Below, in pieces: positions 3,048 to 28,084 of a stretch of 64,000 nt of DNA. The notes under the pieces were generated by a model. The model had not been told where the DNA came from. It made no database searches and worked only from the letters and a program-made list of their open reading frames with translations. Numbering within the stretch: the first letter of the stretch is position 1; every line of letters starts with the position of its first letter. Source of the DNA: the human T2T-CHM13v2.0 reference genome, Homo sapiens; assembly GCF_009914755.1 (NCBI RefSeq), contig NC_060926.1, one strand, 5' to 3'. The position numbers and the translations under genes were made by a program.

Positions 3048-3994
3048 AAGAATCCTTTTCCTAAAAGCGTTTTGTTTTGGTCCTCATAGCTGGTTGATGG
3101 ACCAGTGAGTTCAGCCAAGCACAGGATCAGTAACTGGTAGGTCCAGTCAAACTCTAGAGTCCATGTGTGCATTTACCAATGGATTGAAGCAGCCACATAT
3201 CCCCTTAAATTTCCTTTGCCGTGTTCTCCACAAGTGGAAGGATGGGTGTGTTTGCAGCTCCAGTGTGGACAACTTGCAGTTTCCAAAGGATGCTTTTGGG
3301 GGTGCTACAAATTATAATTTTAAAGTACATCTCTGCAAGAGACTCTCACCTCCTCAAAGTGATCTGGGGACTCTGTATGAATATTGACATCTGGAAATAT
3401 TTCCTTGTATTGTAAAACTACTGTACATGTTTGGGGGCAAATGCAGCAGGAGCTGTAATCTCAAACTTCTTATTCAAAGTATTTTCTAGCTACTTAACAA
3501 TTTTGGTATTTTCATAATAATTAAATAGGCTGTGAGGATTGCTAATGGGTTTCTCCCAGGGGTTCCTTCTTTTCAAAGGTGTCTGGCAGATTTAGGTCAT
3601 ATGTTTTCTTCCTTTTGTGCTGAAAGGGAAAATAAGGAAAAGAAATAGAGAATTCCCAGTAAGAGTCTTTTCAGCTACTTCTACATTAGCTCAAACCAGC
3701 AGAGGTCTGCTCTGCCCATAGCTGTGGGAAACCTGTTAGAGTCTTTAAGGACCTGAGTGAGGAAGGGAGTTCCTGCCAACGGGGTCAGCCATTAGAGCTG
3801 GCTCTTGGTATTATTAGCGGGACCCTCATAGGGAAGCCACGGGGGCACTGGCCTGGGTTGGAACTCACCTTTAGCCCAACATTAGTCTTCACCTTCCCTG
3901 GATTTCTTTGGTCCAGGGAAACTTGTTGGAGGTGAAACCTCCCAGATAGAATCAGACTCAAGCAGAGAATCAATCCATCAAAATGCCTGGACGT

Positions 3995-21790: not shown

Positions 21791-21931
21791 CACCCTGTGG
21801 AAAGGGGCACAGTAAGAGGAGGATCACAGCAGGCCCCCCTATGGTATAGAGCCTGGCACAGTAAACCTGGTTGCCTAGGTCTAAGAGTGGTTCCGAATGT
21901 GCCCCTCAGGAGGGCCTAGACATTGCTTTCC

Positions 21932-22180
<249 letters not shown>

Positions 22181-22344
22181 ACTCTTCTTTAAGGCATTAA
22201 GAGAGACATCTGTGCCGAGAGGAAGGATCAGCATCTTTGAGAAGTATGGTACTGGGATTGCTCTGTATGCTGGTAGGAGACACTGTAGTTGGAAGGGGCT
22301 CCCTGGTTTCAATCTGGGTGAGACAATTCTGGAACAATAGAGGC

Positions 22345-22569
22345 TGAAGATCCACACTAAAGAGAATCAAGATGGTTACCAAATTATGGCTAGCGTGTAG
22401 TTAGAGCAGTAATCAGAATGTTCTGACCTACATGGATCTTTGGGGGCTGGTTAATTTTAGAGACTCTAGAATTGAAATAGGTAGGCAACCCATTAATATT
22501 CTACTTGATCTAAAAAAATAAACAAAACAAATATCCCCTATAGATCTAGTGATCAAGTCATGGTCCTTC
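22345..22569 (+). repeat. Inverted repeat arm, donor (partner 23171-23396)
   Basis: Reverse complement aligns at about 96% by eye. Confidence 0.95.
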
Positions 22570-22944
22570 CCTAATACCTAAATCTAAGTCAGCTGCCAGA
22601 CCCAGAGCTCTTTGGATCGAAGGAAAGACAGGTTCCCTTGAGGAGGGAGCCTGCAATGTCATCACAAATATATACTGTGAGTCTTTCTCAAATCTTTTGC
22701 AAAAGGACTGTGTCTATTTACTAAAGTAACCAGGTACTGGGGGCAGGGAAAAAGCAAGTTCTTTTGGGGATTACTGAACACTAGTTCTGAAATAAGTCTA
22801 AATTCTCAAGGGACAGAATGTCATGCTAGTCTAGTGGTTTTACTGAGAGCTTACAGGAGTCAGGTTGTTGATTTCAGCCTGAGTTTTCTTTATAATAAAC
22901 TACATCCTGAGATTATTTCTTCATATTGTGAGTTTAAAGTTAAA

Positions 22945-22991
<47 letters not shown>

Positions 22992-23073
22992 CTCAGCAGT
23001 TGCTAGAATCCCCATCTTGTCTTTCTGATCCATGAAGTCAAGGATATTATGGGAGAAAGGGTAAAATAAAGTC

Positions 23074-23396
23074 CTTTTTTAAGGAGTTACATGTCCACGT
23101 GTGCAGGGAAGCTTAGGGATAAGCAATACCTTATTTGGAATGGCTTTTCCCTGCTCTGACTGCTGTAACAGAAGGACCATGACTTGATCACTAGATCTAT
23201 AGGGGATATTTGTTTTGTTTATTTTATAGATCAAGTAGAATATTAGTGAGCTGCCTACCTGTTTCAATTCTAGAGTCTCTAAAATTAACCAGCCCCCAAA
23301 GATCCATGTGGGTCAGAACATTCTGAATACTGCTCTAACTACACGCTAGCCATAATTTGGTAACTATCTTGATTCTCTTTAGTGTGTGGCTCTTCA
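23074..23396. other. Composite templated insertion (three local donors)
   Basis: 23074-23149 = 26209-26284 (75/76); 23151-23170 = 25050-25069 (19/20); 23171-23396 = reverse complement of 22345-22569. Confidence 0.9.
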
Positions 23397-23561
23397 CTAC
23401 TAAATGGTAATCCAAAGTAATACTACATTCCAGGGGAATTTCAAAGATTAGCGCCACCACAAAAATCATGATTTCTATCAAGTTTGACTGGTGTGGAATG
23501 TAAATATGGCTTAAAACAAAGACCGAATTATTTTAAACCTAATGATGTAACTATAATTGGG

Positions 23562-23699
23562 TGTCACAGGATAATCTAGCATTATTTCCCTATTTTAAGG
23601 TAATCTAATTAGCAACCTTAATGCTCCTTTGCCATGTAACCTAACATATTTATGGGTTCTGGGAATTAGGACACATGGGTCTATTACAGTACCTCGCAC
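23562..23699 (-). mobile_element. MLT1C-like LTR 5' fragment
   Basis: CCCTATTTTAAGG...ATTAGCAACCTTAAT...CCTTTGCCATGTAACCTAACATATT. Confidence 0.7.
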
Positions 23700-24455
23700 A
23701 CATGGAAACACCAGGAAGCCCTCTAATGGCCACTGTAGTTTATCCCATACACCTTCTTGCCCTCATTGGGTAGAGCAGCATTAATTCCCCTTAAGAGTAT
23801 CAATCATACCAGCTAACATTCTAGCTTCCAATTTTGCCTGTTTCAGGCATGTGAAACAAGAAAGATTCAGGTAGCAGCCTCTGCTACAATTCAGTGGAAC
23901 AGTTGTTGTGTCTTCTGGTAAATCATCCCTCCCTTCAATATGAAAACTTCAAAACTGGCATGTTCCAGACTCATGGGGATGGAAATCGGTATTCTAGACC
24001 ACTGGACCCTGGAAACTGTATTGAGATGACACACCTAAATATTTTCATGGTGTTTATCTCTGACCCTTTGTGTGTTACATAATCATCCAGTATGGCTGCA
24101 GCCTTCTGATTTCTATATTCCATAAGCCTGGCGTCATTAGTATTGTGGGTGAGTATAACATCCTGTAGGATAATGGTGATATAGGAAATACTCCTGTGGA
24201 GTAAGTATGGCATAGAGCTGACGCTATAAAATAGTCCCAAAGAAAGACGGTAAAAGTGTGTTGTTGTCTTTATCAGATGAAGCAAACTGCTTTGGGTTTG
24301 AAAATTTTGTTTTGATTTTCTGCTTATTGAAATAGAGGAAAAGGCATTCTTCAGGTCAATAGCTGCATAGTAGGTGCGAGGGACTATGCGAGAGAACATG
24401 TATTGAGCGATGCAGTTTGGGAGACATAACTGCCATGTTTTCAGAAGCATGGATG
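23700..24455 (-). pseudogene. ERVL reverse-transcriptase and dUTPase-region remnant, inverted relative to the flanking ERVL
   Basis: ORF 23971-24450(-) has YYAAIDLKNAFSSI (RT motif A), QDVILTHNTND (degenerate QDITLVHYIDD) and EINTMKI; the catalytic YxDD is destroyed. Confidence 0.8.
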
Positions 24456-24809
24456 GCTACTGTATTCTTTCATGTCTTTTAATGTATACATTAATATATT
24501 TTAATGAATTTCCTTTCATTGTTGTCTCTAGTGTTGATGGTGGTTGTTTTATAATTTGTTACCTAGGATATAGAATATCAAGATAGAGTGGCAACAATGA
24601 AAAGAAATTCATTAAAATATATTAAGTGGAATGGACATGGTCTAGAAATCTGGGCTAGCTGATGTAATATGGGTGCCTCACCTTGAGGAGAGTTGAGAGC
24701 ACTTTCAGCATATTAAAGGATAGTTGTGCTATGTTAGGAACACTTTTAGAAAGTTCCCATTATGGGAAGACTAGTGTGAGAAAATGTTGGGGAGCTGAAG
24801 AGATGGACT

Positions 24810-25578
24810 GCAACAGGCTGTCCATTACTTTTGGCTGACTAGTTTCCAAATAACTCACTTCAGAAAATGAGGGGGGATGGTTATCACCTACCCTGGTTTC
24901 TTGGAAGCTGGGGTGCAGGCTTATGACCTATCCTACGTCAATTGGATGTTTCTGCCTAGGACTTTGAAACGTGAGTAACAGAGCTGCACAGGCTGAGATA
25001 GAGACTGCAGTCCAGTGACAATGGTGTCAGTGATGGTATGTGTTTTAGTCTGCTTTGACTGCTGTAACAAAATCCCAGAGGCCGGGTAGCTTATAAACAA
25101 CAGAAATTTATTTCTCACAGTTCTGGAGGCTGGGAAGTCCAAGATCAAGGTACCAACAGATTTGGTGTCTGGTGGGGGCTCTTTTCCTCGTTCATAGATG
25201 GTGCTTTCTAACCATGTTCTCATGTGGTGGAAGACACAAGGCAGCTCTCCAAGCTCTTTAATAAGGGCACTAATCCCATTCATGAGGGCCTGTAATTACC
25301 CTGCAAAGGTCCCATCTCCTCATATCATCACATTGGGGATTAGGTTTTAGCATATGAATTTTAGGGGGACACAAACATTCAGACTATAGCTGTGGTGCTA
25401 AGAAGGCTGTTCTCACAGTGTGATCTTCTCAACACCTTATTTTCCTTAGCTTTTTTCTCTTTTCTGAACCTGATTCCCAGGTAATTTCAATTGAATCTGT
25501 GAGCCAGCCAATGCACTACAAACGAATTTCTTTTCTGCTTAAGTTAGCTGGAGTTGTTTGCCTCCCAGAACACTGATT
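24810..25578 (+). mobile_element. ERVL-type LTR (LTR33/40/41-like), split by an MST/MLT1A
   Basis: Follows ERVL 3' internal motif GGATAGTTGTGCTATGTTAGG and a purine tract; ends TTCTTTTCTGCTTAAGTTAGCTGGAGTT. Confidence 0.55.
25039..25391 (-). mobile_element. MaLR LTR (MSTD/MLT1A-like)
   Basis: AACAACAGAAATTTATTTCTCACAGTTCTGGAGGCTGGGAAGTCCAAGATCAAGG...GGCACTAATCCCATTCATGAGGG. Confidence 0.88.
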
Positions 25579-25604: not shown

Positions 25605-25607
<3 letters not shown>

Positions 25608-25648
<41 letters not shown>

Positions 25649-25659
25649 TGTGTCTGTGT
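25608..25659. repeat. (TG)n microsatellite
   Basis: Direct inspection. Confidence 0.95.
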
Positions 25660-28084
25660 AAATTTCACTCAGAGTATTGGAGAATTAGTAATGGGGACTT
25701 TCTTAAATGGAGAAAGAAACAAGTTCATTCACCTGTAGATATTATCCTGAGATAGCTTGTGGCAGAAATTTTTGGTGGAATGCATGAGCTGGCTCAGACC
25801 TGGGCTAACCCTTAATCCAAACTATGATGTGGGAGACTTTTGTTTGAAATGGTTTCTATTTTTATGCCCTGTCCCCCAGCCCCTCGCCAAGCATTTATAG
25901 AGAATGGGGGCTGGGGAATTGTACTGGCATAGAAGCTACTTGGAAAATAGATTGACTGATTAACTAAGAAGTGGAAAGATATTGAATAGTATTTCATTTA
26001 TGTATTCAGCAGACACTTACTGACTTAGTTCCTAGACCCCAGCCTGGCAGCCAGTGACTGTCCCATAGCATGATCTAGGGGCAGGGCACTCAAGGTGTAA
26101 GATACTTATCATCAATGACCTCACTTTGCCACCTGATCCAAATCTAAGTGTGGAGGTTCAAAAAACCATGGAAATGAGTGCATTAGTATGCACGTGGATT
26201 TAGGGTAGCTTTTTTAAGGAGTTACATGTCCACGTGTGCAGGGAAGCTTAGGGAAAAGCAATACCTTATTTGGAATGGCTTTTCAGTCCTAGTGAGAGCC
26301 AAATCAAAACCAAAGTAAAAATTTAAAACACCTCATTACTCCCAACCAAATACAGAAAAAAGTTTTTTCTGACAAAACAACTTGTATTTAGAGTAATGGA
26401 TTCTTTTTTCTTGTGCTTGTCAAATGACCTCACGTGACTTAATCAGGGTGGCTGCAGTCTGGGAACGCTTGGCTGTAGCGGGAGTAGCTTGCGTGCATTT
26501 CTGCCCTCCCTCGTTCCCCATAAAGTGCCCATCATTCTCATTCATGTCTCTACTCCCCACAGCCATGTCTGTGACAGCACCACCACAGGCCTGAGCTCTG
26601 TCCGCGCCTCTCCTCTCAGCTGAGTGGTGCTAACTGCTGTACAAACCACCCCAAATCTCATTGGCACAGTCCATCCCATGCAGGCAGCTATCTTCCAAGG
26701 GGTGACTCACGGACCCAAGCTGCTCCATGTCATGGCGTTGCCATCTTGTGCTGCACAAGGTCGACCTGGAGTCACCCAGGGAAGGGGCATGGAGAATCCT
26801 GCACCTAATGCTTTACCAGGTCAGCCTGGAACACCTATCACTGTCACCCCCATTCCACTGCAAGATGTTTAATTCCAAATGCAGGGGAAGCTGGGAAGTG
26901 CAGTCCCTGGTAGGCTCCCCAGTAGCAGCCTGACTGTGGAGTGGGAGCATGGTCCTTTCTGGGCTGTGATCACCTCTACCACACCATGTAATACCAAACT
27001 TCTTCCCCAACAACAAGCTTTTGACTCATCCCCATGGAGTAAGAAACTGGAGAAACCAATTCACCCTCTGCCACTAATATTTGATGACATTTTATTTCAT
27101 GACCAATTCCAGAATATTTATATCTTTAAAAAGAGGAAAAAGAAGGTAGTCTGCCTGAAGATAACTCAAGGCCATGGCTTTCCAATGGTGGGGGGAGTAG
27201 TTTGGTGGGGGAGGGGAATTCCTGTTATCTTCAGATGATTTGCAGAGGACACACCCATTCACCTATGTGTTAGGGAGATTCAACTTCGAGTCTCAAAGGC
27301 TGATCGTATCAGAGAGGGGACAGAATAGATGCCTTTTGGAGATTTCCAACCAAATTCCAGCCCTGCTGTGTCCTTATTGGCTCCATAAGTCTAGGAGCAG
27401 AGCAGTGGCGCTTGGCTGGCAAACAGCTTGAGGAGTGGTGTGGCCCAGCTCTGTTTTAGTTGGGAGTGAGATTGGGGTGAGATTGATGGGCGCCTCATTC
27501 ATTTTCCAATGCTGATGGATTCCCTGACTCACTCACTGGGGCCAGACATGCATCTCCTGCCCGGCAGTGAAAATGTCAATAACCACTCTCTTTTTACTCT
27601 GCTTCTTTCCAAGCTGGGGATGGGCTTTCATTAAATCCTCAGCCCATGCTTTTTTGGTTAAATCAAATTTACAGCCACTGGAGGGATAGGATTTCAGCTA
27701 TATTTACCTTGCCCTCAGCCAAGTATCCTGGACTAGTTTTTTCAACAACTTACATTTCAGTTTCCAGTTAAAGCCAAGGGCAGGCCCTAAGCTTGAGACC
27801 AGGAGAAGCTGCTTCACCTTCTGTATGGGACTCAGGCACCCTAAGAACTGGAGGGGAATGGGGACATTGTGGTGAGGTGGCTGACCTTGGGGTGAGGGAG
27901 GGTGACATCAGCAGGAGAGTGGGTGACATTAGTGAAAAGATGGGTGACAACTGGGAGAGGCTGGAATTGCTGACTCTTTGGTCAGTTAATTTAAAGCCAA
28001 CCATATCGAAATGTCTATCACCCTGTAAGAACACAGCTGATAGACTAATTAACATTCGAGCATCCAAGATTAATGATAGCAAAC

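What the first reader, a model, noticed from the sequence alone, without database searches (positions are those of the whole stretch)
23074..23396. Three-piece patchwork insertion stitched from local templates
Seen: about 320 bp built from 26209-26284 (direct, 75/76), then 25050-25069 (direct, 19/20, the MaLR end), then 22569 to 22345 (inverted, about 96%). Removing it rejoins the ERVL pro/pol remnant, so this copy is the derived one. The first two donors share a TTTT(C)AGTC-like motif near the switch point. Known: serial template switching (FoSTeS/MMBIR) and Pol theta-mediated end joining give such chains. Inference: a fossil germline multi-switch event. This is the most striking structure in the window.
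Basis: partly seen in the sequence, partly recalled or inferred. Interest (0 to 1): 0.8.

Follow-up and report, generated by a model that had tools for sequence, protein, structure and literature searches.

The report
Old three-template patchwork insertion, human chr2
A 323-base insertion inside a dead retrovirus remnant was copied long ago from three nearby stretches of the same chromosome, a clear but ordinary fossil of error-prone DNA repair that touches no known gene.

Summary
Window 23074-23396 consists of three abutting copies of local DNA:
- 26209-26284, direct, 75/76.
- 25050-25072, direct, 21/23. This lies at nt ~8-30 of a complete LTR.
- 22569-22345, inverted, with 9 substitutions and 2 indels in 226 nt.

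One base (23150) is unassigned. In the whole T2T genome the two long pieces match only these local places.

The host retroviral fragment (22182-23073, + sense) resumes at 23397. About 13-18 nt that its paralogues carry are missing there, so the insert is the derived state.

The copies differ from their donors by 3.4% (CI 1.7-6.2%). Outgroup polarisation puts changes on both copies (4 on the donor, 3 plus one deletion on the insert). The event is therefore old and germline-fixed, not an assembly artefact.

Junction microhomology is only 1, 0 (+1 nt), 2 and 0 nt.

Best reading: one repair or replication event with serial template switching (MMBIR/FoSTeS-like). A single-event origin could not be tested because no primate orthologues were on hand. 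[quoted passage not shown] Interest is low to moderate.

The parts
23074..23149 (+). Insert piece 1: direct copy of 26209-26284 (75/76). Base 23074 (C) could equally belong to the host element, giving 1 nt of microhomology.
23150..23150 (+). One base (C) that matches neither donor 1 (A at 26285) nor donor 2 (T at 25049). It is either untemplated or a later change.
23151..23173 (+). Insert piece 2: direct copy of 25050-25072 (21/23). The last 2 nt (AA) are shared with piece 3.
23171..23396 (-). Insert piece 3: inverted copy of 22345-22569 (9 substitutions, 2 indels). The first 55 nt are identical to the donor.
26209..26284 (+). Donor 1, in DNA that is unique in the genome apart from the insert copy.
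25050..25072 (+). Donor 2, at about nt 8-30 of a complete LTR.
25043..25395 (+). Complete high-copy LTR of about 353 bp (75-78% identical to at least 40 scored copies of 5809 candidates). The name MaLR/MLT1-type is recalled, not tested.
22345..22569 (+). Donor 3, inside the + sense retroviral fragment and collinear with paralogues.
22182..23073 (+). Host element, left part: an old retroviral fragment lying upstream of the RT domain, + sense. The homology to paralogues ends at 23062-23083 in 20 of 21 loci.
23397..23470 (+). Host element, right part: it continues the same retroviral sequence in the same sense. Weaker alignments carry it as far as about 23546-23580.
22945..22995 (+). (CA)n(TA)n microsatellite about 80 bp 5' of the insertion site. 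It is absent from the paralogues shown. Its role as a fork-stalling trigger is inference only.

Best explanation
This was probably a single ancient germline repair or replication accident. A free 3' DNA end at about 23073 left its template. It copied 76 nt from 3.1 kb downstream, then 20-23 nt from 1.9 kb downstream. It then moved to the opposite strand about 0.5 kb upstream and copied 226 nt backwards. Finally it rejoined its own template 13-18 nt beyond the point of departure. That path is serial template switching of the MMBIR/FoSTeS type, or equivalently a multi-invasion synthesis-dependent break repair.

Shown: the insert is fully templated, the donors are local and intact, the insert is derived, and it is old. 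Inferred: that it was one event, the order and direction of the switches, and the enzyme pathway.

The event left a 225-bp inverted repeat with a 601-bp spacer in intron 1 of lncRNA LOC105373592. No function is evident.
For: - Piece matches and their uniqueness in the genome.
- The donors are retained and collinear with their own families or unique context, so the pieces are copies rather than moved fragments.
- The host ERV continues across the insert: nhmmer gaps of 8-32 reference nt in L017, L019/L045 and L036/L043, and 16 of 17 paralogues in pairwise alignment.
- The pieces abut directly, with 1, 0 (+1 nt), 2 and 0 nt of overlap. There is no target-site duplication and no poly-A; the T-run at the insert start is also in donor 1.
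- Divergence is 11 substitutions in 320 nt (3.4%) and is homogeneous among pieces (Fisher p=0.46 and 0.52).
- Polarisation with 17 ERV paralogues gives 4 changes on the donor, 3 plus a deletion on the insert, and the rest ambiguous. The insert therefore preserves older states of the donor.
- Comparable germline insertions copied from several templates (up to five) are described (PMC8421209, passages read).
Against: - No orthologue could be examined, so simultaneity of the three pieces is unproven.
- Piece 1 has 1 difference in 76 nt against 9 in 224 for piece 3. This is not significant, but it is compatible with a later arrival of piece 1.
- Microhomology is no more than chance would give, and the flank homeology tests were negative, so the hallmark of MMBIR is not demonstrated.
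- One base (23150) is unexplained.
- The same ERV carries a nearby inversion and deletion (23700-24385). This shows that the locus was rearranged more than once or in a more complex way than modelled.
Confidence: 0.65

Rival explanations
1. Two or more successive events hit the same site. For example, the inverted copy (piece 3) was inserted first. The new 225-bp inverted repeat then stalled forks at its edge, and a later switch added pieces 1 and 2.
For: Piece 1 is less diverged (1/76) than piece 3 (9/224). The locus shows other rearrangements. Inverted repeats are known fork obstacles (established knowledge).
Against: The difference in divergence is not significant (p=0.46). The pieces abut exactly, with no host sequence or scar between them. 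This reading needs two rare events within a few bases of each other.
Confidence: 0.17
2. A two-ended double-strand break was repaired by polymerase-theta-mediated end joining, with repeated rounds of templated synthesis.
For: The junctions have 0-2 nt of overlap, one unassigned base and a small deletion at the site. These features fit end joining.
Against: Templated insertions ascribed to this pathway are short and copied from close to the break. A study of 33,279 junctions scored the potentially templated class at 2-15 bp (PMC11541566, passages). Here the pieces are 76 and 226 nt long and were copied from 0.5-3.1 kb away.
Confidence: 0.08
3. An RNA-derived patch (class 2 templated sequence insertion): cDNA fragments of the local lncRNA intron transcript were captured at a break, or a reverse transcriptase jumped between templates.
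For: All donors lie in intron 1 of LOC105373592 (hub annotation). Class 2 events show microdeletion, little microhomology, and no target-site duplication or poly-A (PMC5110952, passages), as seen here.
Against: Piece 3 is antisense to that transcript while pieces 1 and 2 are sense. Three fragments drawn from within 4 kb of the break, out of a transcript of about 530 kb, would be an unlikely coincidence. No splice or poly-A signature is present.
Confidence: 0.04
4. An assembly artefact, or recent gene conversion between pre-existing repeats.
For: None specific.
Against: The copy and its donors differ at 11 substitutions and 2 indels. At 4 sites the insert keeps the ancestral ERV state that the donor has lost, which a mis-join of reads cannot give. 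Donor 1 and the insert copy are the only two copies in the genome. The ERV flanks are contiguous across the insert, so piece 3 is not a resident ERV segment.
Confidence: 0.01

Closest known systems
Complex germline MMBIR-type templated insertions (MMB-TI; Osia et al. 2021, PMC8421209, passages read)
   Same: The insertion is wholly copied from nearby templates, with several templates in one event (up to five reported). It mixes forward and inverted copying, returns to the original locus, and is present as a germline or evolutionary variant without a larger rearrangement.
   Different: That survey detects inserts from 10 bp up to read length, with templates within 100 bp. Here the insert is 323 bp and the templates lie 0.5, 1.9 and 3.1 kb away. 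The event is fixed and roughly 3.4% diverged.
FoSTeS/MMBIR complex rearrangements at genomic-disorder loci (model as summarised in PMC11541566 and PMC8421209; the original papers are recalled, not read)
   Same: Serial switches of a nascent strand between templates in cis, in either orientation, with short or no microhomology and small insertions at the junctions.
   Different: Those events usually give kb-to-Mb copy-number changes. This one adds only 323 bp and deletes 13-18 bp. Microhomology here is not above chance.
Short-range template switch mutations in hominid genomes (Walker, Loytynoja & Goldman 2021, PMC7954356, passages read)
   Same: Evolutionarily fixed, inter-strand template switches that create inverted copies and hairpin-capable repeats.
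   Different: Those are single out-and-back switches with a median copied tract of 12 nt and a maximum of 128 nt. Here there are three templates and a 226-nt inverted tract.
Class 2 templated sequence insertion polymorphisms (PMC5110952, passages read)
   Same: A patch at a presumed break, with microdeletion, little microhomology, no target-site duplication and no poly-A.
   Different: Class 2 patches come from distant loci, are thought to be RNA-derived, and are single pieces. Here there are three local pieces in mixed orientation.

Membership tests
Serial template-switch insertion (MMBIR/FoSTeS type) | The inserted DNA is fully templated and the donors remain in place (copy, not move) | tested here: met
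   322 of 323 nt are assigned to three donors. The donors are intact within the ERV, the LTR and unique DNA.
Serial template-switch insertion (MMBIR/FoSTeS type) | Two or more templates are joined directly, lie in cis and nearby, and may be in either orientation | tested here: met
   Three templates lie 0.5-3.1 kb away, two direct and one inverted. There are no other genomic sources for the long pieces.
Serial template-switch insertion (MMBIR/FoSTeS type) | Microhomology at the switch points | tested here: inconclusive
   The junctions share 1, 0 (+1 nt), 2 and 0 nt. Flank similarity is not above chance: p=0.13 at junction 2; none at junction 1; mostly p>0.05 at junction 4.
Serial template-switch insertion (MMBIR/FoSTeS type) | All switches belong to one event | not testable with these tools
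   This needs primate orthologues or intermediate haplotypes. Only homogeneity of divergence could be checked, and it was not rejected.
Polymerase-theta end-joining templated insertion | A short insert (a few to some tens of nt) copied from sequence next to the break | tested here: not met
   The pieces are 76 and 226 nt long and were copied from 3.1 and 0.5 kb away. The size class of 2-15 bp was used in PMC11541566.
L1-mediated insertion (class 1 templated sequence insertion / processed copy) | Target-site duplication, a poly-A tail, and a single sense-strand RNA source | tested here: not met
   There is a deletion of 13-18 nt instead of a duplication. There is no poly-A, and the T-run at 23075-23080 is templated by donor 1. 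Strand orientation is mixed.
Retroviral (ERV) pol-region fragment as host element | Homology to genomic copies that carry RT, RNase H and integrase domains | tested here: met
   nhmmer E-values down to 1.8e-47 against paralogues. The paralogues score RVT_1 4.7e-16 and RNase_H 5.5e-10, both above Pfam's cutoff; rve (4.5e-6) and Integrase_H2C2 (0.0051) fall below their cutoffs. The window's own RT frame gives only RVT_1 E=0.12. The family label ERVL could not be tested because no repeat library was on hand.

The most novel reading that the evidence does not exclude
The site may be a recurrent template-switch hotspot rather than the scar of one accident. The candidate trigger is the (CA)n tract 80 bp away. 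The three-piece insert, the inverted and internally deleted ERV block at 23700-24385, and the 135-bp imperfect palindrome at 24491-24625 would then be successive products of the same instability. In addition, the 225-bp inverted repeat that the event created would fold the LOC105373592 intron into a dsRNA stem of about 220 bp. Such a stem could be edited or processed.
Probability: 0.1. Interest if true: 0.5.

Novelty: new member of a known kind. Interest (0 to 1): 0.3.

Why it matters
This is a clean, datable fossil of a multi-template copying event in the human germline. It is larger, and has more distant templates, than the events that short-read or alignment-based surveys are built to catch. 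Together with orthologues it could serve as a worked example or a benchmark for tools that search T2T primate genomes for such chains. It changes no known gene or regulatory element, so its biological consequence is probably nil.

Tried and rejected
It is present, but 13% of random 20-mers from the window align as well. Rejected as evidence.
- **Flank similarities I thought I saw by eye.** I suspected similarity between the ERV stretch missing at the site and the flanks of donors 1 and 3. Tested against 16 paralogue segments (L023 dropped for its unreliable left alignment): junction 1 gave p>=0.26 in all 16; junction 4 gave p<0.05 in 1 of 16. Rejected.
- **The ~100-150 bp high-copy hit at 23547-23715.** It is not part of the ERV (no hit of an ERV paralogue to L005-L013). 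It aligns with the ends of other repeat copies and looks like the 3' part of an LTR (name recalled).
- **That fragment as the missing half of the LTR at 25043.** Rejected, because the LTR at 25043-25395 is complete.
- **Piece 3 as a resident ERV segment homogenised by gene conversion.** Rejected by ERV collinearity across the insert and by its reference coordinates.
- **Pfam on 16 window frames** gave only RVT_1 at E=0.12.
- **One review (PMC10962320)** is not held.
- **No primate genome, repeat library or human variation resource** is among the tools. Orthologue dating, family naming and polymorphism status were therefore not done.

Full report
**The observation**

The sequence, the repeat finder and pairwise alignment confirm the three matches.
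- 23074-23149 equals 26209-26284, direct, 75 of 76.
- 23151-23173 equals 25050-25072, direct, 21 of 23. This is 19 of 20 for the part not shared with the next piece.
- 23171-23396 equals the reverse complement of 22345-22569, with 9 substitutions, a 1-nt gap and a 2-nt gap. Its first 55 nt are identical to the donor.
- Base 23150 fits neither neighbouring donor.

A search of the whole genome that holds the window (3.1 Gb, 24 contigs) with 23040-23430 returned three places only: the query itself and the two long donors (E 5.3e-94 and 1.1e-28).

The short middle piece is significant on its own. The expected number of matches at 21/23 or better within +-5 kb is 6.7e-7. Genome-wide, 8 sites match with two or fewer mismatches, counting the insert and the local donor, and none matches better than the local one (the tool calls its counts lower bounds). 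The chance that one of seven such sites lies within 5 kb of the insert is about 2e-5.

**What the insert sits in**

Stop-to-stop frames of 22180-25050 were searched against paralogous copies fetched from the same genome. An nhmmer run followed. Both show that 22182-23073 is an old retroviral fragment in + sense.
- In 20 of the 21 loci that matched this part, the homology ends between 23062 and 23083. The exception is L031, which ends at 22962.
- The paralogues are 67-76% identical at the DNA level.
- Downstream of the homologous stretch they carry RVT_1 (4.7e-16) and RNase_H (5.5e-10), both above Pfam's cutoff, plus weaker rve (4.5e-6) and Integrase_H2C2 (0.0051) matches below their cutoffs.
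- The window's own RT-like frame scores only E=0.12.

**Is the insert derived?**

Yes. Three distinct paralogues gave a separate nhmmer hit to the right flank, and each hit continues the reference directly after the left flank:
- L036/L043: 23076-77 at reference 3982, then 23393 at 3994.
- L019/L045: reference 9748, then 9737.
- L017: reference 2142, then 2110.

Pairwise alignment of the two flanks to the site in 17 paralogues placed the right flank 24-36 nt downstream of the aligned end of the left flank in 16 of them. L023's left alignment was unreliable. After allowing for unaligned flank ends, about 13-18 nt that the paralogues carry are absent from the window. The event was therefore an insertion of 322-323 nt with a small deletion and no target-site duplication.

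**Are the donors original?**

- Donor 3 lies inside the collinear ERV alignment.
- Donor 2 lies at about nt 8-30 of a complete LTR of about 353 bp at 25043-25395. That LTR aligns end to end with high-copy relatives (5809 candidates, 40 scored, 75-78% identity). The name MaLR/MLT1 is from recall.
- Donor 1 lies in DNA with no other copy in the genome except the insert.

Because the donors are intact, the pieces are copies made by synthesis, not captured fragments. The boundaries of piece 2 fall inside the LTR and those of piece 3 inside the ERV. The three pieces therefore cannot be a relic of an ancestral contiguous arrangement.

**Age**

Copy and donors differ by 11 substitutions in 320 nt. 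That is 3.4% pairwise, with a 95% CI of 1.7-6.2%. The pieces are not significantly heterogeneous (1/76 against 9/224, Fisher p=0.46).

I polarised the differences in piece 3 using 17 ERV paralogues as outgroups. These were chosen because their hits covered the donor-3 region; L017, L024, L032 and L039 were left out, and L026 was left out as a duplicate of L029.
- The donor carries the derived state at 4 sites: 22374, 22488, 22493 and 22513.
- The insert carries the derived state at 3 sites (22412, 22478, 22490), plus one deletion.
- The remaining differences are ambiguous.

Both copies have therefore drifted since the copying. This rules out an assembly artefact or recent conversion and marks a fixed germline event. 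Against recalled primate divergences, 3.4% sits near the human-orangutan value. The interval runs from about the gorilla split to about the macaque split. This is an inference to be tested with orthologues.

**Junctions**

In the same register, the junctions share 1 nt (C at 23074), 0 nt with one unassigned base, 2 nt (AA at 23172-23173) and 0 nt.

However, the junction as it stands is not a simple merge of that motif, and 13% of random 20-mers from the window align to the donor-1 flank equally well.

I also tested whether the ERV stretch lost at the site resembles the unused flanks of donors 1 and 3, using the real sequences of 16 paralogues. There was nothing at junction 1 (p>=0.26 in all 16). 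At junction 4, p<0.05 in 1 of 16 and p was 0.05-0.07 in 3 more. Microhomology therefore neither supports nor contradicts a template-switch model.

**Mechanism**

The anatomy requires a 3' end that copied three local templates in turn, changed strand once, and came back 13-18 nt ahead of where it left. That is serial template switching, as in MMBIR/FoSTeS or in a multi-invasion synthesis-dependent break repair.
- Polymerase-theta end joining is less likely. Its templated insertions are short and copied from next to the break (a 2-15 bp class in PMC11541566, passages).
- An L1-type origin fails on target-site duplication, poly-A and strand.
- An RNA patch (class 2 TSIP; PMC5110952, passages) fails on the mixed strands and the strictly local origin.
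- A two-step history remains possible. Piece 3 could have come first, with its new inverted repeat provoking a second switch that added pieces 1 and 2.

The (CA)n(TA)n tract at 22945-22995 lies about 80 bp from the site and is absent from the paralogues shown. It is a plausible fork obstacle, but that is inference only.

**Comparison with what is known**

- Germline templated insertions copied from several templates (up to five) have been catalogued, though with templates within 100 bp and inserts no longer than a read (PMC8421209, passages).
- Fixed short-range template switches in hominids have a median tract of 12 nt and a maximum of 128 nt (PMC7954356, passages).

The present event is larger and reaches further, but it is of the same kind. 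It lies in intron 1 of an uncharacterised lncRNA (hub annotation) and touches no exon.

One by-product: the two arms pair in the predicted RNA fold of 22300-23440. There are 220 arm-to-arm pairs, and the duplex energy is -382 against -68 +- 6 for 30 shuffles.

**Verdict**

The structure is a new instance of a known kind of mutation. Interest is about 0.3.

Noticed in passing
window 23700-24385: The same retroviral element is itself rearranged. The RT part (23992-24385) and a part from the integrase side (23700-24008) lie in the opposite sense to 22182-23470, with about 1.9-2.2 kb of the element missing between them. In 17 of 18 distinct paralogous loci that hold both parts, the upstream part and RT share one sense and lie about 270 nt apart. 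L024 has its own different arrangement. Whether this inversion belongs to the same event as the insert is unknown.
   Followed up: partly
window 23547-23715: A fragment of about 150 bp from a high-copy repeat (348 candidates, about 76-83% identity) sits at the left edge of the inverted ERV block. It aligns with the terminal part of other copies and is not ERV-internal. It looks like the 3' part of a MaLR-type LTR (name recalled). It is not the missing half of the LTR at 25043, which is complete.
   Followed up: partly
window 24491-24625: An imperfect 135-bp palindrome: 39-nt arms, 92% complementary, with a 57-nt spacer, and 74% identity over the whole length against its own reverse complement. 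It lies within 24386-25042, a stretch with no other match in the genome at the sensitivity used. [quoted passage not shown]
   Followed up: no
window 22945-22995 and 25607-25677: A (CA)n tract next to the insertion site and a (TG)n tract 2.6 kb downstream are mutually complementary on one strand (up to 39 nt at 97-100%). They could pair in single-stranded DNA and bring the site close to donors 1 and 2. This is speculative.
   Followed up: no
window 21922-22180: A high-copy element of about 260 bp (72-86% identity to many copies present in the fetched loci) abuts the left end of the ERV fragment. It looks like an Alu in minus orientation (name recalled).
   Followed up: no
window 22345-22569 with 23171-23396: The event created a 225-bp inverted repeat with a 601-bp spacer. 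In the + strand transcript it is predicted to form a stem of about 220 bp.
   Followed up: partly
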